Source: Vermamoeba vermiformis (lineage: Eukaryota). From it: a stretch of 64,000 nt of DNA. The position numbers were made by a program, and so were the translations under genes. Positions within the stretch are counted from its first letter, which is position 1; each line of letters starts with the position of its first letter. Shown one piece after another: positions 1,774 to 58,255 of this stretch. Where the stretch lies: contig JBEWZL010000292.1 of the NCBI GenBank assembly GCA_045837725.1, forward strand, positions 1-64,000. Direction: 5' to 3'. The notes below the pieces were generated by a model, which was given only the letters and a program-made list of their open reading frames with translations, had not been told where the DNA came from and searched no databases.

Positions 1774-2498
1774 TCACTTGTCAACTACGATCTTCAGCAG
1801 CCCACGGTGTTGTTGACTGTCGCTGTCGATGGTATTCACTGCAGTCCACAGCTCACTAACAGTGTACCACGCCACAGGACACATCGGCCAAACATCTGCT
1901 ACGAGCACCAAGTCATGCTCAGCGTGATAGGCGACAATAGGGCTGTGATGGCCCACAGTGATTTTGTAGTTCGGTAATTGCGCGCCATCGAAGTTGAGCA
2001 CGAGGCCTGCATTCGGTGTTGTCAACGAGTCAATGATTAACTGACGCAATGAATCTTTTGTCATATTGGAGGCATGATGTCGTTCAGTAGTGATTGACTT
2101 GACAGGATAAGGCACAGTTAGGCGACAGACGATCGCATCTAGTTCGGCTAAAGTCAAGCCTTGGCGTTCTATTCTATTTTTTAATTCGACAATATCTTCC
2201 CCTTGTAGCATAGAAAATATTTTCTCCTCTGTTTTAATATTAGAACGCGAGCTGACATTTAATTTGATATTTTACCTTCAAATTCCTTCTTCGTTAAATC
2301 AGCATCGATTAAATAGGAAATCACACTCATTATACTAGCAATTCCACAATAAGTATTTCCTCGTTGCCTCTTTAAATATTTTTTCATTTTGTCGGACCAA
2401 CGGCCGTGTCCAACAGATTCGCTCTCTTTTAATAACTTTGCTCCGACAGGGCCAGCAACGGGCGTCGGAGTTGAAACAGATGGTGGACTGGTTTGCAT
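1774..2498 (-). CDS. Phytochelatin synthase-like papain-fold enzyme, catalytic domain only (1 intron)
   Basis: QRGNTYCGIAS (Gln, catalytic Cys), GHHSPIVAY (His) and LVADVW (Asp) match PCS motifs. Confidence 0.8.
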
Positions 2499-2659
2499 CG
2501 TGGTTGTGATCGGTTCTAAACTGGGACAATTAACAACCCGCTGCGGGCGACTTTTCTTTGTATTTCTCCGAATTTACGACAAGTACAGAAGAGCACGATG
2601 CCGTCAGAATGATTATTTTGCATTTTGGATTGTATAGGTAGCAGGAGTATTTAGTCACG

Positions 2660-4467
2660 ATGAATAGGTAAGAAAGTGCTGAAGTGACATACCTAACCGA
2701 AATTGAATTTATTGCTAGCAAAATTTTAAATTATACACTGCAGGCAAATTTAACCGCATTACCATTACACGTCTCTAAAAATGTTTCAATGATTTTAAAA
2801 ATTAATGTAATACTTGTAGCACAACGCCGATCGATTTTGAGAAGTTCGATCCGTCCTTCTCGGGAATCTGGAAACAGCTCGACATTTACTCGCCTACTGA
2901 TGGATACTTAAGTACACAAAGAAAGGGCATTTATTTGCGCGACGCTTTTGTGGAAAAGAAGGTACGTGGTGCTTAGTTTCAATCCCTCGCTAACTCGATC
3001 ACAGCTCGGCGTGCCAAACACAGCAAAAGAACAAGCCTCTAAGCTGATGAAGCTACTTAGATATGAAGTCGCTCGTTCAGAAGTGTATCGCTCACTATTG
3101 AAACAAATATTCAAGAACAATGCGGTCATCAACATCTTTCTCGGCAAAAACTCAGCGGCCTTTGTTGACAGCGCAGACCTGTGGACATTTGACTTTGACG
3201 ATCTGTTGAGTTTGCCCATAGACCCTGTAACAGTGCACATTCACGACCATCATCGCGAACATAACCCCAAGTTGTGTTCGGCGAGCACAGAGTTGAAATG
3301 CGGTGTCACGCAAGGCGAGCTATTGCTGCACATATTGGAAGAACGATATTACATGGGCCGTGCTGGCCACAAGTACACCGAGGCTCATTTGAAGTGCTTG
3401 AGTCCTGGCTCGTATCAGAATCAATACCGCAAAGAAATGGGTCTGCAATCGTATGTGGTCCACTTCTCTTTGTTACTCGCCGCTAACTCTATTGCAGCGA
3501 TTTGACACTGATGGCTATTCATGAAGACGGTGTTGAGCCATTGATCAACGACAAGTTCATTCCATTCGATAATTTCACCCACGCACAGCAAGGACGTAGT
3601 GACGAGTTCTACGACCAATTAGGCGCTGAAGTTATTCCCACTGACATCACTCTTGACAAGCTCAGTCCCAATTCTGACAAGCCAAAAGTCGCGCTGTTGT
3701 ACACCGCTCTCTCATCGATGCCCGTCGAAGTAGTGACACACGCAGAGAATGTCATGGAGATTGGTCAGAAGCATTATTCAACTGGTGATTTTGTCACACT
3801 GGACAGCCTTGGCATTGTCACACAATTGGGAAAGTTGGAGATTAGCAAAGCAGAATACCCACGTGACGAGCGTTTTGAGAACTTTGATCCGCGCAAGTTG
3901 GAGCTGACAATGCACGTGCTAGACATCAATTCATTTGCAGCCAAGTATATTAAGAACAAAATTGACATTCTGACACGCGAGATTGTCGTCAAGAAGAGAA
4001 TTCCGCCATTGGACTTCCCACCAATTCTGCTGCTCAAACACATGTACGAGCACGTGCACGGCAAAGAGACAGAAGCGTACGACAAGGCAGTGTTTGACTT
4101 CTTTGGGCCAATGGTCATTCACTACGCACGAAGACAGGCGTGGACGTTGTTGAACTCCAAGTTCAAAATCATCAAGCACGGCGGTGCCTTTGTCAAGTTG
4201 TGCGACTTGCCCTATTTGATTCAGAGCGCGCAAGACCAAATGACTCAGACCTGTGAGCGGGCAGGCATTGTTGTGCCGAGCGATTGGCGCACTAGTGTGC
4301 CGATTGTGCCGGAGATCGAAGAAGACATCAAACAGATCAAGATCCGACTAGTTCCGACTCTAACTAGCGCGTTTACCAAGTACGCATCATGTATCAAGTC
4401 TGAAGAGTCTTTATTCAAACTTGGCAATGAACAAGCAATCGTGGATGCGCTCGCAGAAGTGATTTGA
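2660..4467 (+). CDS. Hypothetical protein (spliced), possible metallopeptidase-like N-terminal region
   Basis: Exons join in frame across GT-AG introns (MNSTTPIDFEKFDPSF..., ORFs 2948-3505 and 3502-4467); family not recognised with confidence. Confidence 0.6.
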
Positions 4468-48627: not shown

Positions 48628-50080
48628 ATGGCTGATATTGAGGTAGAAAATAATATTGCGAATGGCAACGGTGAGGACCATGGTGTGTTGCACAAGAAGT
48701 CAATCCCAACGGAAATCTTGAAAAAGGAGTTTATGGACACGCCAGTTGAAAGTGATTCGTCTGAGGATGAAGCCACACCAGAAAGGAAGTTCGACGATGA
48801 TTTAACTCCTGCTGTAAGTGATTAACTATCATTACAAAAAACCGATAATTTAAATTTTAATTGTGCCTTTTATATACAGAGCTTGCCGAAAAAGAGAACG
48901 TTTGATACGTCTTTGGACGACGATGATAATGTTAAATATACTGCCAATGGAAATTCGAGTGATAGAGAGCTCAAAAAATTAAAGCGTGTGATCGAAGAGT
49001 TGGAAGACGAGCTAGCGGATGTAGAGGATGAAAAGAAAGATTTGAGACGAAAATTGACCACAGTGAGTGCCATACTCGCAGTTATAATAACATTGCAATT
49101 TTAACTTTTAAAAATGTTTCACAGACCGAAGAACAACTGTCACGTGCCGAGCTGTCACTCACCGAGCGCGAGGACGAATGCGCGGCACTCAAGCGCGACA
49201 TTGATCGGTGGCGCGCACGTGTCGATGAGGAGAGCAAGCGCCGCACTGCCCTCGAGGGTCAAATGAAGAGCCGCGAAGAGAAGTGGGCTGCAGTGGAGAG
49301 CAACGCATCCGAAGTGACGTATTTGGAAGGCAAGCTCGTGGAGGCACGTGTCGAGATCAAGAAGCTGAGCGATGAACTCGCCAAGGCCCGTGAAGAGCGC
49401 GACAAGATGGCGGAGAGTGTCAAAGAGGCCGGACACAGCAGCACCGAGTCGAGTCGCAAGCTGCAGCGCGAGATTGAGGCCCTGAAGCTGCGCCACGAGA
49501 CTGACCTCACGCTGCTGCGTCAAGAACTCGACGAGCAACACGACCTCGCGCAGAAGAGCATCGATCAGCTGCGCAACAAGTTCAAGGCTCAACTCGCTGC
49601 TGCCACCGCACAGAGCGAGGAGTCACGTGGCGATGAAGCGGAATTTCGTCGCGTGAAGCGCAAATTGGACCGCACCGTTCATGAACTGACGGAGAAATTG
49701 GAGACTGAACGATTGGAGCGCAGCAAAGATCTGCGCAACATTGAGAGCTTGACGCGCTTGAACAAGACCCTGCGCGAGAAGCTGGACAAGGTACGTAGTG
49801 ACTGGCGCATAGTTGAGGGATCGTGTACTGATGGTGGCACTAGCTGACACTCGACAAAGACAATCTCGACGAGGCCAAGTTCTCGTTGGAGAGTGAAGTG
49901 AAAGATCTGCGCACCAAGCTCGAGATTGCAGAGAAGCAGCGCCAACACTTCCAAGAGCAAGCACAAGCACTGCGCTACGAGTCGAGTGATCACGTGTCGT
50001 CGCGTCTCTCATCGAAGAGTGTACGAGCTGAAGAGCCCCACGTTGAGAGTGGTGCAGTTACAACTGTAGATGAGCAGTAA
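48628..50080 (+). CDS. Long coiled-coil (myosin-tail-like) protein
   Basis: Heptad-rich spliced exons (ORFs 48883, 49263, 49886). Confidence 0.65.
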
Positions 50081-50551
50081 TCATTGTTTTATTAGAATTA
50101 TTTAATTAAAGATTAATACCGCATTTTTGCTCGTACTCTTTCGATCCATCTTCTGCTCAGTTGCACTTGCCCTCAATTGGCCACATCTCGTAGCTTGACT
50201 GCAAAATGTTTAGGGCCTGTTGTGAAATCATTTATCCAGTCTGGCTCTGCTGGCCACTTGGAATGTTGCAGGGTCCCAATGTGGTTGCATTTTGGAAGTA
50301 TCCAGAAGTTTTTACCTCATGGAACATGCATTGTCCAGGCTGGACATCTCACCCTGGCCAATTGGCCATCCTCCAATGGCTTTAACATTTTGCATGTATT
50401 AGAATGGAATATTGTGAATGAGATGTTTCTCTAACGAAGTGCTCATATTGATTCTTTCTATTGAACTCTCGCATATCATAATCCGCTGTCATCAAAATCT
50501 TTGTTAAATGCAATTTTATTGAAAAAGTAAAAAGACTCCATTAACATTTCA

Positions 50552-51448
50552 CTAAAAATATTGGTTTGGTAAACTAGTGCCAGAGGTGTGTGCTAGTGCG
50601 CTTATCAGTAGTTGCTCATTTTGTAGCTCATGCAATCGTTCTTCATAGATTTGTCGCTCAATCCTGTCTCTCTCCTGATTTGAACGCAGCTCAATCCTGT
50701 CTCTCTCTTGATTTGAACGCAGCTCGCTTTTGATTAGGTCATAGCGTAGTGCTTGTAACTCCTGTTTGTTGATTCTTAAGCGCAATGCTAGCGGTATATC
50801 TGCAGGGCATTGGTAAAGCTGCGACTCCAGTTGGGGTTCAGTAACTTCATGCCTCGCAGTGCTTGCAGAAGTTGTGATCTGGGTGCAATTGGATGACTTT
50901 GGTTTGGGCTGGAGAAGGGGTGGTTGTGCTTCTTCACAGATTGTCTTTGTTCTCTTGTTGGACTTTAATGTGGTTATGGCCTTCCTAACTCTCTTCTCTT
51001 TTGGGTGTGCCTTGCTGCACTCATCAAAGGGCAAGGGTTTGTTCACTTGTCTCTTTTCTCTAGTATATACTGTTGTTGGGGCTTTGATAACCTTTGGTGG
51101 CACTTTCTGGGCTCCAATCCACTCCCCAAGACACTTTGTAATTGAAGTCTCATCAGCTGGCTCTGCCTGCAATACATTGCACCACTCTAGGGATAAGAGC
51201 TTGGGCTTGGTGTCGTACTGTCCATCAGCAACTGCAAGGACCTTGGTGTGTTGGGTTTTATCCTTTGCCAGTGACAGCACCCTGTACATTCTCCTGCGAA
51301 ATGAGATCAAGTCTCCAATCTGAAGCTTGACTGCACCCCCAGGTGACACCAGTTGAGGATATAGTTCGTAGTGTCCAGCTTGCTGAGGCACACCTACTGC
51401 ACTGCATTCAGAAAGGGTGACTGACTCCTGGTCAAGCTGTGCCAACTC
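50552..51448 (-). CDS. Orphan cargo protein: possible BAH/SH3-like N-terminal domain, low-complexity linker, coiled-coil tail (5' exons unresolved)
   Basis: 297-aa open exon preceded by a GT-AG intron (~51449-51492); YELYPQLVSPGGAVKLQIGDLISFRRRMYRVLSL. Confidence 0.55.
   Translation of the reverse strand, partial: ELAQLDQESVTLSECSAVGVPQQAGHYELYPQLVSPGGAVKLQIGDLISFRRRMYRVLSLAKDKTQHTKVLAVADGQYDTKPKLLSLEWCNVLQAEPADETSITKCLGEWIGAQKVPPKVIKAPTTVYTREKRQVNKPLPFDECSKAHPKEKRVRKAITTLKSNKRTKTICEEAQPPLLQPKPKSSNCTQITTSASTARHEVTEPQLESQLYQCPADIPLALRLRINKQELQALRYDLIKSELRSNQERDRIELRSNQERDRIERQIYEERLHELQNEQLLISALAHTSGTSLPNQYF
50656..50725. repeat. 33-bp tandem duplication encoding ELRSNQERDRI twice
   Basis: gctcaatcctgtctctctc(c/t)tgatttgaacgca x2, one mismatch. 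Confidence 0.95.
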
Positions 51449-51777
51449 CTAAATATGCCGTGAGAATGAAATCAAGCCTAGAAGATATATACCTGGTATT
51501 GCTGTGTCGGTGGGGCCGTCGGATTTGCGTTTAAGTTTGAAGTCTGAAAAATTTTTTTAAGTGTGGTGCAAAAATTTCAATTCGAGTTTGATTATAGGGG
51601 TAGGTATTGGATCTGAAAGCGGAATCGACAAATTTGTTGTCGTAGGAAAGATAAAGGGGCTGCAAATCTGAAAAAGCTAAAAATAGCACACCTAGCAAGC
51701 CGCAAGTGCACGAACAAGAAAATTTGCCAAGTCGAACGGACAGTTAATTTCAATTTTCTCATCTTAAACAACACAAG

Positions 51778-52765
51778 ATGGAGAAATATATTGACGGGCC
51801 AGTTGTGCGCAATGGAATCAATTATTATACGTTAAAATTCAGTCCTCCTCCTGTCTCTCGTTTCGATCCACCCAACACCAAGTAAAAATTTTAAAAAAAA
51901 AAAGATAATGTTTGATATAAAGGAAAAAATTAAAAGCAGCAAACAACAATGCAAACCGACCATTCCCGGTGAAGAATCATTTCATATTGGCTTTTGGCGT
52001 AGATACGCACTAATGATTCTGCTGTCGCGAGACTCTCGTGCTGGTGCTAGTGCGTTTTGTGAGTTGCCTGGCGTGGTGGAGTTTTTCAACGAGATTGACC
52101 GGCTGTTCGAGTTCCTTGACAAGGACCTCTACGAGGAATATTGCAGCGTCACACCCGATGAACAGCGTGTTTGCGGCAAATCGTTCTTGATGACCGTACT
52201 CAACCGTGGCGGATCCGATCCGCACATTGATAGTGAAGATCGCGTTGGTGGTTGTTGTTGCATTGTGCCTATTGGCACAGACTGGACCGGTGGCGAGTTG
52301 GCATTTCGAGACCTCCACGTTGCCGTTGACTGCACTCCAGGCGATGTTGTGTTTTTCAGATCCGCCGAGCTGTACCACGAGAATTTGGACTACTACGGTG
52401 ATCGCCGCTCAATTGTGTTGACCTCCGATCAGAACAGTTTCAGTGCATCGGGTCAAATGCTGGATCCTGACATGATTGAAGAGGCTAGGCGATACAACGA
52501 GCAGCACAACGTCAAAACAAAAGATAAGATCGAATGGTGCTTGCGTCCATTACTCGATTGGTTTAGCACTCCAGAGGAATTGCGTGCGTACATCAGAGAG
52601 CGTGCCAAACAAAGAATTCAGCAGCGCATTGCTTTTAAGCAGAACAAGCACCTCATTGACGCGACCAAAATTGCGTGGGACAGCCGCCAATTTAAAACAA
52701 AGGATCGCTCACCAAGCACCACGAAATTAAATCGTCGTCACCGAAATGCTCCAAAACGAAAATAA
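51778..52765 (+). CDS. TET/JBP-family 2OG-Fe(II) dioxygenase (1 intron)
   Basis: HIGFWRRY; N..PHIDSED (HxD), CCIVPIG.DWTGGEL.F, PGDVVFFRSAELYHEN (distal His), RRSIVL (2OG-binding Arg); basic C-terminal tail. Confidence 0.8.
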
Positions 52766-52790
52766 ACTTACAGTTATTGGGCTTTCATTC

Positions 52791-53423
52791 TCAACTTGGT
52801 TTGTTTTTGTTGTCACATCCGCAATCTGTATTTGGCACGTCAATTGGCACGTGCGTTCTTTTCACAATTAAGCATGAATTTACCTCATTGTCGATTGGTT
52901 TTGCGCTACTTGAAATCTGATTTCCCACAGTTGTTTGTAGATCTAAGTCACTTCGTGTGCTGACGGTACCAACCTGATACATGCGTCACTTTCGAAGTAC
53001 AGCTCATTCTAAATTTAGATTTTTCAACCAAAAATAGAGCTCTCGATTAACAAAGAAAGCTCTGTATTATCGACTACTAACTCACTTGTGTGACGGCATT
53101 AGTTTGATCATTTAATGTAGTGCTTGGGCTTTCATGTTCCGTGGAGAACTGAGTTGGCCCCGACTCCTGTTCGAGGTTACATCTCTTTTTTACATTTGTC
53201 CGAAAAAACTGGATCTCACCGGTTCGTCACTCTCGTTATTGGCATTATGGAGTATGTCTCTTCTTTGTGCTCTGCTAAGTAGTGGCCCTTGCAATTCAGG
53301 TTCATCATCGTCAGTCTGAAACAACCAACCGTGTTTTTAGTCTTATTGTCAGCGACTTTAATTATTAACGAGTATTACTTGAAGTAGAAGCACATCACTA
53401 TCACCAGATTCTTGTATTGACAT
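52791..53423 (-). CDS. Possible small spliced acidic/low-complexity orphan gene (3' end uncertain)
   Basis: ATG at 53423 gives MSIQESGDSDVLLLQ|TDDDEPEL..ESDEP|ESGPTQF.. joined by phase-compatible GT-AG introns. Confidence 0.35.
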
Positions 53424-53457
53424 TGTTCGTGGTTTACTGAATGATTACTCAATCAAA

Positions 53458-55710
53458 ATGGACACGAACCTGATAAAAGGTAGCTTCGTCATTTTTCAGG
53501 CACCAGTCTTAACATAATTATTTAGCTCGCAACCTAATTAAGCAGTGCCATCCCAGAAATGAATCCAGCCACTTCGAAGCAGGAAAACGAGTTGACACAC
53601 CCAAAAGGCTTACGATAGACGGTGATCAAGCTTTAAAACTCAGTATTGATAAAAACCACATACCTTTGTAAGTCCTTGATTTACGTGTAATTTATTCTTT
53701 ATTGTAACTTTTTTGTTAGAAATACTCGCAAGCAAGATCGACTTTGTAACTCGTTGCATTTGAGCGAGATTCTCTACGCACATTGTTGTCCTCAACAGTG
53801 CATTGCAAAGCACTTGAAAGAAACTCCTACTGCCATCCAAGAGCACTTAAAGCTGTGGTCTGGACTGCCGCAAGACTTGCTCTCTGAAGAACTCGCTAAA
53901 GTGCTAGACTCCTGTCAGGTAAGCCAGTTCTATGCATAACTACAACTTAAACTGAATTGTGCTACCAGGTGGAGCATGCAACTGAAAAAAGCGTCAAAAT
54001 ACAAGGAAATTATTATAATTTGAAGTGGCACGGAGTATCCTTATGTCGAACTGCCTTTCAATTGCTTTATGGGGTTTCCAGAAGAAAGCTAATCTCAGCT
54101 TGTGGTGGCTCATACTTACAACCGCATGGCAACACATTGATCTACCACGAAAACAGCTTGACCTTGGATATTTTGAACTTTCTTGATGATTTGAAAGCAC
54201 GCTGTGGTAATCAATGTGATTCGGACCCAACAAAAGATTATTTGAATGGCTTTTACGAGAAGAAACAAGTGTGGAAGCACTACATTGATTCACGATCCGG
54301 TAACGAAGATGTGGCAAGTGACTCTCACTTCTATGCAGTATGGAGCCATCACCGCCCGAACTTGGTAGTTGAAAATGATGCTATGAAGTGTGCGACATGT
54401 ACAAAACTTGATATCTTGATGAAGTCAGCGTAAGTGCACTTGGTAAATAAGAAAAAACTAAGTCTGTGCAGGTCTGAAGAAGAAATTGTTTCACTCAAAG
54501 CTGACAAATTGAGGCACAAGCAAGTGAAGAAAGTGCACTTAGACAGAATGCATTCTTTAATGGCACGGGCCAAGAGAGGGCAGTTTTTACTTCTCATTGG
54601 GGATCACATGCGAAGCAAAGGCATACCCAAGTTGAAACGCAACAATATGAATATTTTAATGAGTGAACTTATCAACATTCACTTCTCTGGTTGGTTCAAC
54701 CCGTATTCCGGAAAGTCCAAGTACTACCTCTTCCCTGAGCATTGGTCAGAGAGTGCCAACTCAATCATATCTTGCCTACATGCATTGCTGAAGGAACTGA
54801 ACTCACCACAGAGAAAGTTGGTCCTGGTTTTCGACAACCACAGCACACAGCACAACAATGCTCTGCTTGCTTATTGCGACTGGCTTGTACGGTAAGTAAC
54901 TAGACCCTAATTGACTAATACTAATAGCCGTTTAGCTTCAACGGCACGTTTGATGAGATAGAGATCTTGTTTTTAATTGCAGGGCACACCAAGAACAAGC
55001 AAGATCAAATGAACTCCTATGTCGCCGGCGAATACATGAAGCGACAATTCTTCAGCATTTCAGACCTTTGCACACTGGGCAATGACAAGCGGGAGTTTCA
55101 AGAACAACAACATATCTTGCAGTGGGTTAAAAAGTTCGCTCCTCTTATCAACGAGTACCCCAATGTGTCAAAAGCTCATCTCTTCTTATTCACAAGAGAA
55201 GGATTGACCACCAAAGAGTTTGTTGATGACTTAGAATGGAACAGCTGGAATTACCAAGATCCTATGTCACACCATCACATGCTACTCTCCAAACCGGTTG
55301 GAGTGCTCGAACCAATGCAGCCATACAAGTTGTCAGACAAGAAAAAACATGATGCCAAAGCATCTCTTGCCTATATCCCTATTGAGCACCGAGACTACAT
55401 TTCCAAGTTGCTGGTGAACGATTTTGGGTACCAAATTCAAGCAGTCGATGCTTTTGGTGAATTGGGTATGGCTACAAGACCAATTGCTCCACCAATGCCA
55501 AGATCAATCGTGTTCCGTGAGAAAAGAAAGAGAGGACAGCAACAGCCAAGTAAAGCTCAGCATCCCAATGCAACTGCACTGTATTCTGAAGACACGCTAG
55601 AACCTGGTGAACTGGATGACATCTTACAATCTGCTCCTCCTGGTGAGTACTATGACAGTGCTGAGGAGCAATGCCAGGCAAAGAAAAAGCATAAATCTAC
55701 TCAGAACTAA
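53458..55710 (+). CDS. Sola-superfamily (Sola2/DUF7869-like) DDD transposase, 6 exons, reading frame intact
   Basis: LCRTAFQLLYGVSRRKL..PHGN, KKQVWKHY..FYAVW..CATC; putative catalytic LIGDHM, VFDNHSTQHNN, FLIAGHTKNKQD; five GT-AG introns join in frame. Confidence 0.75.
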
Positions 55711-55914
55711 TTCATTTTTACATCACACTAAAGTTTTTACTTTTTCAATAAAAATGCATTGTTACTTGAGATATTTGGAGCTTGATTTCAAGGACCTTTC
55801 CTCTGCTCAATCCCTAGCGCTTGGCCAGCAAGGAAACCATCAAACTTATCCAAAATATTGGTATCCACAACAATTAGGCGCTATAGCATTTTATTCCATG
55901 AGAACCTAGTGACA

Positions 55915-57031
55915 GCGGACACCCTGTCCAGGTCTTAGGAGTCACTGCATCTGCTGTAGAACTTTGTTCTATATGCTGCAAAACATTTAAACTTTGGAAA
56001 TACATTGAACTATCCTATAGGCGGACGTTCTGTCCGTGGACATTGCGCCCGTCCGGGGTTGCTGCGTCCGCTGATGTTGGTAATTGACCAACTATACCAA
56101 ACTCGGCCGTTAGCATCAGTGGGCCCAAGAAACACTACTATTGCGTCAGGAGGCTTTGGGCTAAACGCCAGAGGCTGAAAATGGCAATGTTCTGCAAAGA
56201 ACTTAGGTACTAGAACTTTGTTCTATTGGCTGCAATACCATTGAAACTTTGGAAACTCCTAGACCTATCACTATCTAACAAAAAAATATAAGTGATCATC
56301 AAAGATATTGTAGTGGCAGCAAATTGTAAATTTTCAACATTAAGTTATGAACCCCTCCATCGGCACATACTGTGCACAACATAACTAGACGTATTTTATG
56401 CACCACTGAACTTTAGCTACAATTCATTGTCACCTAACTGTCCAAAAAATGTTGCATCATCCATACTTTTTTTATGTTGTAACGTTGTCCAGATGGATAA
56501 TGTAGCCAGGCTGGACTATCAATCTGTCTGGCTACATCATCCACACTGGATTGGCCATCTTCCTTTGGCCAGAACACATTGTCACAATGATTTCTTTTTG
56601 CATCATCCATACTTTTTTTATGTTGTAACTTTGTCCAGTGGTTGCAAACCGTTTTATAAATGATATGCTTAATCATATGATACACAGCATATAGAAGTCT
56701 TATTAAAATCTCATAATGACGTATGGTCAGCAGACGCGCGGTTGGTGGCACATCCAATTTTTGTCAGACAGGACGTCCGCCACTGAGATACTAACATCTA
56801 TTTACTTGTTTACCATGGTGCTAGCTGAAGTTAAGGTGGTATTGCAGCATAAAGAACAAAGCTCGGTGCTTAGGTTCATTGTTAAATATTAAGATTGTCA
56901 GCCTCCAGTACTCAGCCATATGCTTAATCATGTTATGGCATGTAGAAACTTATTAAACTTTACAGATATGATGTTAGGTCACAAACATGTGGTTGTGGAG
57001 GACACCAATTTTTGGACAGGACCACCACTGA
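55915..57031. repeat. Block of degenerate direct and inverted repeats
   Basis: A: 55957-56014 and 56211-56269, inverted copy 56828-56878; B: 56452-56492 and 56598-56638; C: 56663-56786 and 56918-57031; D: 56020-56034 inverted to 56767-56781 (14/15 match). Confidence 0.85.
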
Positions 57032-57178
57032 AAAGCAAACCCTAACCAAAACAGAAATCACACAGCCCTTTCTACCTGCAGCATCATTGATATTCAGCAG
57101 CAATCTAGGCTTGATTCACAAAGTGCGGTCACTCCCGCTGGTACACACTATTCAACACGTTACAGCTGAACCCCAAGT

Positions 57179-58069
57179 TTATTGTTGCTGCGCATCACCC
57201 AAGAGAGGCTCTTGTCCCTGCGACTTGTCCTTCTTCTTGTTCTTCATGTGCTTGGCGACGTACCTGAAGCCCAAGCCAGTCACGACAATCCATGCCAACA
57301 CTGCGCCAACCTGCAGCACAATGGTGATCAAGAAGGGCACGTTGTCGCAGTGTATCTTGTCCTTCTCGCCTGCGTTGTACACGGGCACCAGTCCCTCGCT
57401 GCAGAAGGTCCACGCGGATTTGAGACTGATGCTGTCCGTTACAATGGTGTAGCCAAAGCCTGCCATCTGTGCAATGCCGAGCAGCAACATCTAAGTGGTG
57501 TCAGTGAGTGCAACAATTACCTTATTTGGCAGTTACCAGTATGGTGAGCCAGCGGCGGTGTCGAATTATTCCGCCGACGAAGAAGAGCACTGCGACTGCA
57601 ATGCCTACCGCTGCCACTAAGATGCGCACTGCGGTATGTTTCGCAGTCCACGCACACTGCAAGTAGTTCGGATCGTTGTCTGATCACGTGTCAACTGAGA
57701 GGCACTACCAAATTAGGAAATGATCGCTACTTTACCATAAAAGTACCGCACTGGACGAGCGCTGTCAATCCACGGTGCTTGATCGCAGCCTACGGGCAAC
57801 TAGGCAATATAATAATGCAATTAGTACTAGTGTTTGTGGGTGAACGGAGCGGATTAGAAATTAATTTGGCGTGCTTACGTTATTTTTGTCTGTGTGCTCT
57901 TGATTCGAGAGCTGCGTAAAGCTGATGATAATCACACCCAAGTCTACGGCCTAGTTGTTATACATTACATTAACACCTGCAACGCGGTTGAACAAGATCT
58001 GCTTACTGCGACAATAATAGCCAGCACTATTAAGGCAATCTTAAATACGATTCTCTTTGCCTTGCCCAT
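57179..58069 (-). CDS. Hypothetical 4-TM membrane protein with Cys-containing loops
   Basis: Spliced hydrophobic exons; ends QEPLLGDAQQQ (dileucine-like motif). Confidence 0.6.
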
Positions 58070-58255
58070 ATTCTATTGTATTACCACAGCGACGAATGAT
58101 TGATGGAGTTGTGGTTGGTGGATCAAGCTCGTAAACAAGAATGAACAGAAAACCTTTAATTGGGCAATGCCTGCTATTATACACCGCTATTTACAACTGC
58201 TTCATCACATCGTCGCGACACTGTACCTAGTCGAGCGCTTAATGCTGCAGAAATG

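What the first reader, a model, noticed from the sequence alone, without database searches (positions are those of the whole stretch)
50100..57050. Candidate new system: Sola-like DNA transposon carrying a TET/JBP dioxygenase
Seen: an intact spliced DDD transposase (53458-55710) lies ~0.7 kb from a TET/JBP-type 2OG-Fe(II) oxygenase (51778-52765), with orphan genes and a repeat block, between two ordinary host genes. Established: TET/JBP genes travel with KDZ (Kyakuja/Dileera/Zisupton) and Plavaka transposases in fungi. The motifs here (CRTAF..HGN, CxxC, DN..NN, FL.GHTK..D) are Sola-type instead, and I do not know of a described Sola+TET element in amoebae. Inference: the element encodes its own 5mC, 6mA or T oxidase to reverse silencing or mark its own DNA.
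Basis: partly seen in the sequence, partly recalled or inferred. Interest (0 to 1): 0.92.

Follow-up and report, generated by a model that had tools for sequence, protein, structure and literature searches.

The report
DNA transposon carrying a TET-like dioxygenase
A 5.25-kb cut-and-paste DNA transposon in an unidentified protist carries, besides its transposase, a TET/JBP-type DNA-base oxidase gene and a third conserved gene, which extends a trick known from fungal and green-algal transposons to a further transposase family.

Summary
The core observation holds, but the boundaries and gene models need correcting. The element is 50507-55760 (5254 bp). It has 27-nt terminal inverted repeats (26/27 matching) flanked by a 4-bp duplication, GTTA. 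The repeat block at 55950-57050 lies outside it and is an unrelated high-copy repeat.

The element holds three genes:
- **ORF-L:** a conserved orphan (44% homolog).
- **TET/JBP-like 2OG-Fe(II) dioxygenase:** Pfam Tet_JBP is weak but the top hit in 9 of 9 sequences scanned. HxD..H..R is invariant.
- **Transposase:** six exons, 672 aa, Pfam DUF7869, with D319/D396/D438 on an RNase H-like fold.

Decisive evidence is an independent metagenome contig, L001. It carries TET (48% aa identity) followed by the transposase (66%) on the same strand, with shared intron positions. Synonymous sites are saturated and pN is 0.10-0.34.

Caveats:
- The element is about single-copy.
- No RNA reads were seen (the only RNA run is a divergent strain).
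- The window's TET 5' region is a private 74-nt variant of a 267-nt stretch.
- The "Sola" label fits (DDD, 4-bp TSD) but could not be tested by sequence.

TET-carrying transposons are already known in fungi and Chlamydomonas, so this is a new variant of a known kind.

The parts
50503..50506 (.). Left copy of the 4-bp target-site duplication (GTTA)
   Evidence: Read directly from the sequence. It is identical to 55761-55764 and abuts the inverted repeat.
50507..50533 (+). Left terminal inverted repeat, 27 nt. Its complement holds an AATAAA just past the ORF-L stop.
   Evidence: the repeat finder I2, 96% complementary. The pattern occurs at only these 2 sites in 64 kb, and 0 of 100 shuffles reached 2.
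50552..51448 (-). ORF-L, the conserved third gene of unknown function. The stop-to-stop frame is 298 aa with stop TAG at 50552-50554. A 44-nt GT..AG intron directly upstream suggests a further 5' exon that I did not resolve.
   Evidence: Homologs are P0030 (99%) and P0031 (44% over 285 aa, E 3e-71 pairwise, on a 5513-nt contig). No Pfam or PDB match.
51778..51882 (+). TET gene, conserved first-exon remnant. It begins with ATG at 51778.
   Evidence: 15/23 identical to the first TET exon of L001, E 6e-9. The L001 exon/intron structure was read. In the window it is not spliceable in frame.
51876..51949 (+). A-rich 74-nt segment private to the window assembly. Read contigs have 267 nt here.
   Evidence: read laying joint 51875->51950 with 267 letters between (X1 contig of 5173 nt, depth 332). 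The X7 contig match starts at 51950. The roughly 193-nt shortfall equals the end of exon 1, the intron and the start of exon 2 as seen in L001.
51908..52765 (+). TET/JBP-like 2OG-Fe(II) dioxygenase, main ORF of 285 aa with stop TAA. It includes H106-x-D108, H157 and R166.
   Evidence: Pfam Tet_JBP E 1.8e-4. 11 homologs at 46-97% identity. Invariant residues in A1. ESM Atlas: 23 of 30 hits in Tet_JBP sets.
53458..55710 (+). Transposase gene of 672 aa. Exons: 53458-53479, 53526-53667, 53720-53918, 53969-54429, 54472-54891, 54936-55710. Catalytic D319, D396 and D438.
   Evidence: Pfam DUF7869 on exon 5 (E 4.6e-5) and exon 6 (E 1.6e-8, 34.8 bits against cut-off 26). Introns 3 and 4 sit at the same in-frame positions in L001, and removal of intron 5 is confirmed by the uninterrupted L001/P0029 sequence. 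RNase H-like fold of homolog P0029.
55734..55760 (-). Right terminal inverted repeat, 27 nt. It contains AATAAA 24 nt past the transposase stop.
55761..55764 (.). Right copy of the 4-bp target-site duplication (GTTA)

Best explanation
Window 50507-55760 is one insertion of a cut-and-paste DNA transposon whose family carries three genes.

Shown:
- 27-nt TIRs with a 4-bp duplication.
- An open 672-aa transposase of the DUF7869 family with a D-77-D-42-D triad on an RNase H-like core.
- A TET/JBP-like dioxygenase with the complete iron and 2-oxoglutarate-binding residues.
- A conserved orphan gene, ORF-L.
- Conservation of the TET-then-transposase arrangement in a second, much diverged lineage, with both genes under purifying selection.

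Inferred:
- The transposase binds the TIRs, excises the element and reinserts it with a 4-bp staggered cut.
- The two terminal genes read outward and use the AATAAA inside each TIR as their poly(A) signal.
- The dioxygenase oxidises a modified base, most likely 5-methylcytosine, on the element's own DNA or nearby. That would counter methylation-based silencing, as proposed for TET-carrying transposons of fungi and Chlamydomonas.
- ORF-L may be a DNA- or chromatin-binding helper.

This copy is about single-copy in its genome. In the window assembly its TET gene is damaged at the 5' end.
For: Ends:
- The inverted repeat is 26/27 and flanked by GTTA on both sides.
- The pattern occurs at only 2 sites in the window, and 0 of 100 shuffles reached that.
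- Element genes have 43-48% G+C against 54% in the flanking host exons.

Transposase:
- DUF7869 covers profile positions 7-177 of 192 across exons 5 and 6.
- 16 relatives were found among 1.84 billion representatives, and 9 of the 10 scanned carry DUF7869.
- In the AF2 model of P0029 (core pLDDT 75-95, pTM 0.69), D5 lies on strand 1, D82 at the end of strand 4 and D124 at the start of the next helix.
- All 50 listed structural neighbours have an RNase H-like fold. The 23 best are all integrases or transposases. The best is Z 7.8, rmsd 2.7 over 123 residues.

TET:
- Tet_JBP is the top Pfam hit in 9 of 9 sequences scanned (window plus 8 homologs), and 1 of 9 is above the curated cut-off.
- H106, D108, H157 and R166 are invariant in 11 sequences.
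- ESM Atlas scores 0.95, with 23 of 30 hits in Tet_JBP sets.

Linkage:
- Of 3 metagenome loci with a TET relative, L001 has TET at 571-1410 and the transposase at 2451-3683, where it runs off the contig end. They are on the same strand and in the same order.
- Between the window and L001, pN/pS is 0.34/0.80 for TET and 0.10-0.24/0.76-0.91 for transposase exons 3-5.

Other copies:
- Extra diverged, frameshifted contigs match 55452-55700 at depths 445-740.
- Several homolog clusters hold multiple member sequences (P0003 15, P0008 16, P0028 18) or occur on several contigs (P0007 on 6, P0028 on 4).
Against: - Only one insertion defines the ends. One 4-bp match has about a 1 in 256 chance at a fixed boundary.
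- No empty site and no second full copy were seen. Depth in X1 is 332 against 397 for the host flank.
- The other 2 of the 3 TET loci (L002 and L003, the same sequence) have no DUF7869 gene within 14.8 kb.
- No RNA read lay on the element (one bin of 20 shows 0.22, the rest 0). However, that run is only 90-95% like the window in host exons and may lack the element.
- The window's TET scores below Pfam's cut-off (21.2 against 34.9 bits).
- The best PDB sequence match, Naegleria Tet, is not significant (E 0.93).
- The TET fold prediction failed (pLDDT 41).
- The window's TET lacks about 193 nt of its 5' part.
- Nothing here shows that the host methylates DNA.
Confidence: 0.75

Rival explanations
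1. The transposon and TET are real, but TET does not counter silencing. It may make a hypermodified base (thymine hydroxylation as in JBP, or a glyceryl adduct as in Chlamydomonas CMD1) that marks the element. It could also act on RNA or protein, or serve the transposition reaction itself.
For: The TET/JBP family includes thymine hydroxylases and CMD1-type enzymes (Kojima 2025 introduction; Chlamydomonas v6 preprint passages). The family here is distant from all solved TETs (E 0.93). Its invariant GCCC motif has no known role that I could find.
Against: No positive evidence for another substrate. The published proposal for transposon-borne TETs is 5mC removal.
Confidence: 0.2
2. It is a dead or domesticated relic. 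The element no longer moves, and its genes are decaying or have been taken over by the host.
For: Depth is about single-copy. No RNA reads were seen. The TET 5' region in the window is disrupted. The only other matching pieces in X1 are diverged and frameshifted.
Against: The transposase frame is open over 672 codons with canonical splice sites. The TIRs are 26/27 identical and the TSD is intact. Read contigs of the same organism carry the longer TET version (P0001). The RNA run is from a divergent strain.
Confidence: 0.3
3. TET and ORF-L are host genes next to a transposase gene by chance. The 27-nt inverted repeat would then be only a pair of similar 3' ends (poly(A) regions) of two outward-facing genes.
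For: Both repeat arms contain AATAAA and lie about 20 nt past a stop codon. There is only one copy, so copy boundaries could not be compared.
Against: The TET-transposase order and strand are conserved in L001 at saturated synonymous divergence. There is a 4-bp direct repeat exactly at the repeat ends. Composition is lower in G+C than the host exons. The TET and ORF-L homologs come from short, multi-copy contigs of 3-5.5 kb.
Confidence: 0.05

Closest known systems
TET+ DNA transposons of fungi (Kyakuja, Dileera, Zisupton, Plavaka, hAT7, IS3EU, PHISTA/Harbinger, EnSpm, ESTA, Helitron; Kojima 2025, PMC12730594; Iyer et al. 2014 as cited there)
   Same: A DNA transposon with TIRs and TSD encodes a TET/JBP dioxygenase beside its transposase. 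Some, such as PHISTA, also encode a third protein. The proposed role is escape from methylation silencing (abstract and sections 1 and 3.1 read).
   Different: The transposase family here is DUF7869. It gives no KDZ Pfam hit and has no C(2)C/H(3-4)H motif between the second and third acidic residues. The TSD is 4 bp, against 8, 7, 6, 3 or 2 bp for the lineages described in the section I read. The words Sola and amoeb- occur 0 times in that paper. Its supplementary tables could not be seen.
Chlamydomonas DNA-1_cRei (carries CMD1) and the Helitron2 families with TET/JBP genes (Chlamydomonas v6 preprint, 10.1101/2022.06.16.496473, passages read)
   Same: TET/JBP genes inside DNA transposons outside fungi. 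They are multi-gene elements with TIRs and TSDs.
   Different: DNA-1_cRei is 18.4 kb, has 67-bp TIRs and 8-bp TSDs, and has no recognisable transposase. The element here is 5.25 kb, has 27-bp TIRs and a 4-bp TSD, and has a clear DDD transposase.
Sola superfamily (Sola1-3; Bao et al. 2009, known to me only through citing papers) including the Sola2-Fanzor1 elements of dictyostelid amoebae (Bao & Jurka 2013, PMC3627910)
   Same: DDD transposase, 4-bp TSD, size within 2-9 kb and TIR within 11-1124 bp (PMC10741241 passage). Sola2 elements of Amoebozoa are known to carry passenger genes.
   Different: Sequence relationship to Sola1, Sola2 or Sola3 was not tested. The target GTTA is neither the AWWT of Sola1 nor the ATAT/AAAT/ATTT reported for dictyostelid Sola2. 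The passenger is TET, not Fanzor.
Pfam DUF7869 (PF25273) proteins
   Same: The catalytic core matches. Exon 6 alone is above the curated cut-off. The nearest ESM Atlas clusters are DUF7869 clusters, commonest in Mollusca, Cnidaria and Oomycota (25 of 30 hits).
   Different: The family is annotated only as a domain of unknown function, and no held paper mentions it (0 papers). Here it sits in a complete TIR/TSD element and folds as a DDD RNase H-like core.

Membership tests
TET/JBP dioxygenases (Pfam PF12851) | HxD...H iron triad and a distal Arg for 2-oxoglutarate | tested here: met
   H106, D108, H157 and R166 are invariant in 11 aligned sequences.
TET/JBP dioxygenases (Pfam PF12851) | Profile match at or above the curated cut-off | tested here: inconclusive
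   The window ORF scores 21.2 bits against a cut-off of 34.9. Tet_JBP is the top hit in 9 of 9 sequences scanned, but only P0003 (35.4 bits) passes. ESM Atlas: 23 of 30 hits in Tet_JBP sets, score 0.95.
TET/JBP dioxygenases (Pfam PF12851) | Double-stranded beta-helix fold like the solved TETs | tested here: inconclusive
   The AF2 model has mean pLDDT 41 and is unusable. The best PDB sequence hit is Naegleria Tet 5cg8 at E 0.93.
TET/JBP dioxygenases (Pfam PF12851) | Oxidation of 5mC or T in DNA | not testable with these tools
   Needs an enzyme assay.
DUF7869 (PF25273) | Profile match above the cut-off | tested here: met
   Exon 6: 34.8 bits against a cut-off of 26, profile positions 89-177. 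Exon 5: 23.5 bits, profile positions 7-85.
Sola superfamily | DDD catalytic triad | tested here: met
   D319, D396 and D438 are conserved in homologs. In the model of P0029 they sit at the canonical RNase H positions. Catalysis itself is inferred.
Sola superfamily | 4-bp target-site duplication and TIRs | tested here: met
   GTTA on both sides of 27-nt TIRs, from a single insertion only.
Sola superfamily | Significant sequence or profile similarity to Sola1, Sola2 or Sola3 transposases | not testable with these tools
No Repbase or Yuan-Wessler sequences are held. Neither Bao et al. 2009 nor the id I recalled for Yuan & Wessler 2011 could be fetched.
Sola1 group | AWWT target preference | tested here: not met
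   The TSD is GTTA. AWWT comes from the PMC3845634 passage. n = 1 insertion.
KDZ (Kyakuja/Dileera/Zisupton) and CMC-type (Plavaka, EnSpm, ESTA) TET carriers | [quoted passage not shown] | tested here: not met
   Pfam at E<=1 gave only DUF7869 and DDE_3 on the catalytic exons, and one chance-level hit (FANCI_HD1, E 0.14) on exon 3. The 41 residues between D396 and D438 hold no such motifs. The ends are AATGCA..TGCATT. Criteria are from Kojima 2025.
TET+ transposon (TET encoded inside the mobile unit) | TET lies between the termini, and the linkage recurs in independent copies or lineages | tested here: met
   TET lies inside the TIR/TSD pair. L001 has the same order and strand. This holds for 1 of 3 loci with a TET relative. 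The other 2 hold a TET pseudogene among Harbinger and Tc1-like remains.

The most novel reading that the evidence does not exclude
This is the first complete TET-carrying transposon of the DUF7869 (probably Sola-type) DDD family, in a protist that is neither a fungus nor a green alga. The element would be potentially active, with a conserved three-gene design in which ORF-L directs the dioxygenase to the element's own DNA. That would show that capture of a DNA demethylase is a general, repeatedly evolved counter-defence of eukaryotic DNA transposons. It would also give DUF7869 a function.
Probability: 0.4. Interest if true: 0.65.

Novelty: new variant of a known kind. Interest (0 to 1): 0.55.

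Why it matters
Transposons that carry their own DNA demethylase are a counter-defence described so far for fungi (11 transposon lineages) and Chlamydomonas. A further, unrelated transposase family doing the same in another eukaryote supports the idea that TET capture is a recurrent solution wherever 5mC silences mobile DNA.

The finding also gives three practical things:
- The Pfam family DUF7869 gets a concrete identity as the catalytic core of a TIR/TSD transposon.
- It offers a compact 5.25-kb element for testing whether a transposon-borne TET acts in cis.
- It flags a small TET subfamily (invariant GCCC motif) and an orphan partner protein for biochemical study.

Tried and rejected
- No whole genome is held for the window, so copy number, other TSDs and empty sites could not be searched directly.
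The contigs behind P0001-P0011, P0028 and P0031 therefore could not be fetched.

**Scans that found nothing**
- Viral contigs with TET and with the transposase.
- Genome contigs with the transposase and with TET.
- Alignment A3 was too diverse to scan with.
- Rfam and tRNA scans of 49500-58000 found nothing.
- The bacterial promoter/terminator scan was at shuffle level and is irrelevant to a eukaryote.
- ORF-L has no Pfam or PDB sequence match.
- The TIR motif is not in L001, which is an incomplete contig.

**Structure**
- The TET structure prediction failed (pLDDT 41).
- Foldseek on the transposase model gave no match at E<=0.001. VIA-align gave only middling Z (at most 7.8), though all 50 listed neighbours have an RNase H-like fold and the 23 best are integrases or transposases.

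**Read data**
- The X4 loose end behind 50128 does not match anywhere in the window with up to 3 mismatches, so it is not an empty site of this island.
- X1 joints 50533->51660, 51043->55369 and 51686->51987 have only 22-32 letters on one side. They may be deletion derivatives or chance matches, and I draw nothing from them.

**Papers**
- Bao et al. 2009 and the id I recalled for Yuan & Wessler 2011 are not held.
- 'DUF7869' gave 0 papers.
- JBP + transposase + dioxygenase + Sola gave 2 papers, both incidental judging by their titles and abstracts.
- The phrase 'tet jbp' does not match 'TET/JBP', so say nothing on that term.

**Gene model**
The only GT..AG pairs I tried give a stop or a frameshift.


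Full report
**What is there**

The window is eukaryotic. Exons are G+C-rich, introns are 35-55 nt, and the host genes include CDC45, MCM, NPR2, capping protein beta, a TKL-like kinase and a RapGAP.

Between two host genes lies a stretch of lower G+C. The repeat finder found a 27-nt inverted repeat, 26/27 complementary, at 50507-50533 and 55734-55760. The pattern occurs nowhere else in the 64 kb, and 0 of 100 shuffles reached two matches. Directly outside both arms stands GTTA. I read this as terminal inverted repeats plus a 4-bp target-site duplication of a 5254-bp element.

Element genes have 43-48% G+C, against 54% for the flanking host exons.

Its summed contig depth in run X1 reaches 7655 and 56959, against 397 for the host flank. 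It is an unrelated high-copy repeat.

**The transposase**

My gene model has six exons (53458-53479, 53526-53667, 53720-53918, 53969-54429, 54472-54891, 54936-55710). All introns are GT..AG, and the frame is open over 672 codons.

- Pfam matches DUF7869 on exon 5 (E 4.6e-5, profile 7-85) and exon 6 (E 1.6e-8, 34.8 bits against cut-off 26, profile 89-177). There is a weak DDE_3 hit (E 0.036).
- At E<=1 the only other hit is one chance-level match (FANCI_HD1, E 0.14, on exon 3), so there is no KDZ profile.
- An exhaustive HMMER search with exon 6 found only 16 proteins at E<=0.001 among 1.84 billion representatives. Of the 10 I scanned, 9 carry DUF7869.
- P0020 is a full-length (676 aa) relative. 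It has the same upstream Cys-containing motifs and the same three acidic positions.

An AlphaFold model of the catalytic core of P0029 was used for the fold. P0029 is 88% identical to exon 5 and 56% to exon 6. The model has pLDDT 75-95 over residues 27-280 and pTM 0.69. It places D5 on strand 1, D82 at the end of strand 4 and D124 at the start of the following helix. These correspond to D319, D396 and D438 of the window protein.

Foldseek found nothing at E<=0.001. VIA-align against 48161 chains listed 50 neighbours, all with an RNase H-like fold. The 23 best are all integrases or transposases: retroviral integrases, IstA, Mos1, Metnase, TnsB. Lower rows add Sleeping Beauty, MuA, Tn5 and Hermes, alongside Prp8 RNase H-like domains and Argonaute/PIWI proteins. 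The best is Z 7.8, rmsd 2.7 over 123 residues. Z is middling, so this shows the fold class only. The protein is a DDD transposase.

**The dioxygenase**

The ORF at 51908-52765 (285 aa) hits Pfam Tet_JBP at E 1.8e-4, below the curated cut-off.

- A word-indexed search found 11 relatives at 46-97% identity.
- Tet_JBP is the top hit in the 8 relatives I scanned, and one passes the cut-off.
- In the alignment, H106, D108, H157 and R166 are invariant, as is a GCCC motif.
- In the ESM Atlas, 23 of 30 nearest clusters are Tet_JBP sets, score 0.95.
- Against PDB sequences the best match is Naegleria Tet, but at E 0.93. The fold prediction failed at pLDDT 41.

I file it as a divergent TET/JBP-type enzyme. 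The substrate is unknown.

**A flaw in this copy of TET**

The ATG at 51778 opens a short exon that is conserved in L001 (15/23, E 6e-9). In L001 that exon continues, is followed by a 53-nt intron, and joins the main ORF. In the window the corresponding roughly 193 nt are missing, and exon 1 cannot be joined in frame.

Read contigs of the same organism (X1, a 5173-nt contig at depth 332) carry 267 nt in place of the window's 74 nt at 51876-51949. An aquifer-metagenome contig (X7) also stops matching exactly at 51950. P0001 (97% identical, with a different N-terminus that fits the family consensus) probably comes from that longer version. Whether the window's version is a real allele or an assembly artefact is open.

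**The third gene**

The minus-strand frame at 50552-51448 has a 99% twin (P0030) and a 44% homolog (P0031, E 3e-71 pairwise, on a 5513-nt contig). It has no Pfam or PDB match.

It ends about 20 nt before the left TIR, as the transposase gene does before the right TIR. Each TIR offers an AATAAA in the sense of its neighbouring gene.

**Is TET cargo of the element?**

The decisive test was a scan of metagenome contigs with the TET alignment, which returned 3 loci.

- **L001** (3685 nt) encodes a TET relative (48% identity, 571-1410). About 1 kb downstream on the same strand it encodes a transposase relative: 66% identity over residues 56-428, running off the contig end.
  - L001 is interrupted in frame at the same two places as the window's introns 3 and 4.
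  - It has no interruption where I removed intron 5.
  - Nucleotide similarity is confined to the coding parts, at about 67%.
- **Selection between the window and L001.** Synonymous differences are saturated (pS 0.76-0.91). Non-synonymous ones are much lower: TET 0.34, and transposase exons 3, 4 and 5 at 0.24, 0.22 and 0.10. The two genes have stayed linked and under selection for a long time.
- **L002 and L003** are the same sequence. They hold a TET pseudogene with a stop inside the GCCC motif. A Harbinger-type DDE_Tnp_4 frame lies upstream and a Tc1-like DDE_3 fragment lies downstream. There is no DUF7869. This neither supports nor contradicts the linkage. It does recall the fungal finding that TET genes move between transposon superfamilies.

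**Copy number and activity**

- In X1 the element has depth 332, against 397 for the flank, so it is about single-copy.
- Extra diverged and frameshifted contigs match only 55452-55700, at depths 445-740. These are probably remains of other copies.
- Water and aquifer metagenomes (X4, X7) hold pieces of both flanks and of the element, with 0-8 differences per piece listed inside the element.
- The only RNA run laid (X21) resembles the window by just 90-95% in host exons. It covers both host genes but has no reads on 50106-57125, apart from 0.22 in one bin. That shows neither silence nor absence.

**Comparison with what is known**

- Kojima 2025 (PMC12730594; abstract and sections 1 and 3.1 read; supplements not visible) describes TET-carrying transposons of 11 lineages in three fungal groups. 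Sola and amoebae are not mentioned.
- In Chlamydomonas, CMD1 lies in the 18.4-kb DNA-1_cRei, and other TET genes lie in Helitron2 families (passages read). TET capture by transposons is therefore known in fungi and a green alga.
- The Sola superfamily is defined by a DDD transposase and 4-bp TSDs, with sizes of 2-9 kb and TIRs of 11-1124 bp (passage). Sola2 elements of dictyostelids carry Fanzor1 as a passenger.
- The present element fits that definition. I could not compare it with any Sola sequence. GTTA differs from the AWWT of Sola1.
- No held paper mentions DUF7869. The one search combining JBP, transposase, dioxygenase and Sola gave 2 papers, both incidental judging by their titles and abstracts.

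**Verdict**

This is a real, well-delimited TET-carrying DNA transposon of the DUF7869 DDD family. It is probably Sola-type, and it has a conserved third gene. It is a new variant of a known kind. The anti-silencing role is an inference by analogy, and mobility rests on one insertion plus conserved linkage.

Noticed in passing
window 55950-57050: High-copy repeat block with its own inverted termini (arms at 55959-55984, 56213-49 and 56828-64) and internal direct repeats. Summed contig depth in X1 reaches 56959 against 397 for the host flank, with many variants and rearranged joints. No Rfam or tRNA match. It is probably a MITE-like family unrelated to the TET element.
   Followed up: partly
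L002 3008-5364 (and the same sequence in L003): A TET pseudogene (stop inside the invariant GCCC motif) lies directly downstream of a PIF/Harbinger DDE_Tnp_4 frame. It is followed in the same frame by the C-terminal half of a Tc1/mariner-type DDE_3 domain. This may be a second, Harbinger-borne TET element or a nest of insertions.
   Followed up: partly
window 50106-50456: Slightly raised depth (487 against 397) and a contig break at 50365/50432 in X1. There is also a 32-nt stretch 75% like part of the high-copy repeat (D4). A repeat fragment may sit between the host gene's 3' end and the left TIR.
   Followed up: no
window 50656-50721: A perfect-frame tandem duplication of 33 nt (97% identical) lies inside ORF-L. 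It repeats 11 residues of its C-terminal coiled-coil-like part, and the repeat is absent from homolog P0031.
   Followed up: no
window 48702-50105 and 57126-58178: RNA reads filed under the same species label differ from the window at many third-codon-like positions. 168 of 226 laid reads are only 90-95% alike. The label therefore covers clearly diverged strains or species.
   Followed up: no
P0019 and P0024 (DUF7869 relatives): P0019 has a weak chromodomain hit at its C-terminus (E 0.0079). P0024 ends in a sequence that looks similar by eye; this was not tested. Some DUF7869 transposases may carry chromatin-reading domains.
   Followed up: no
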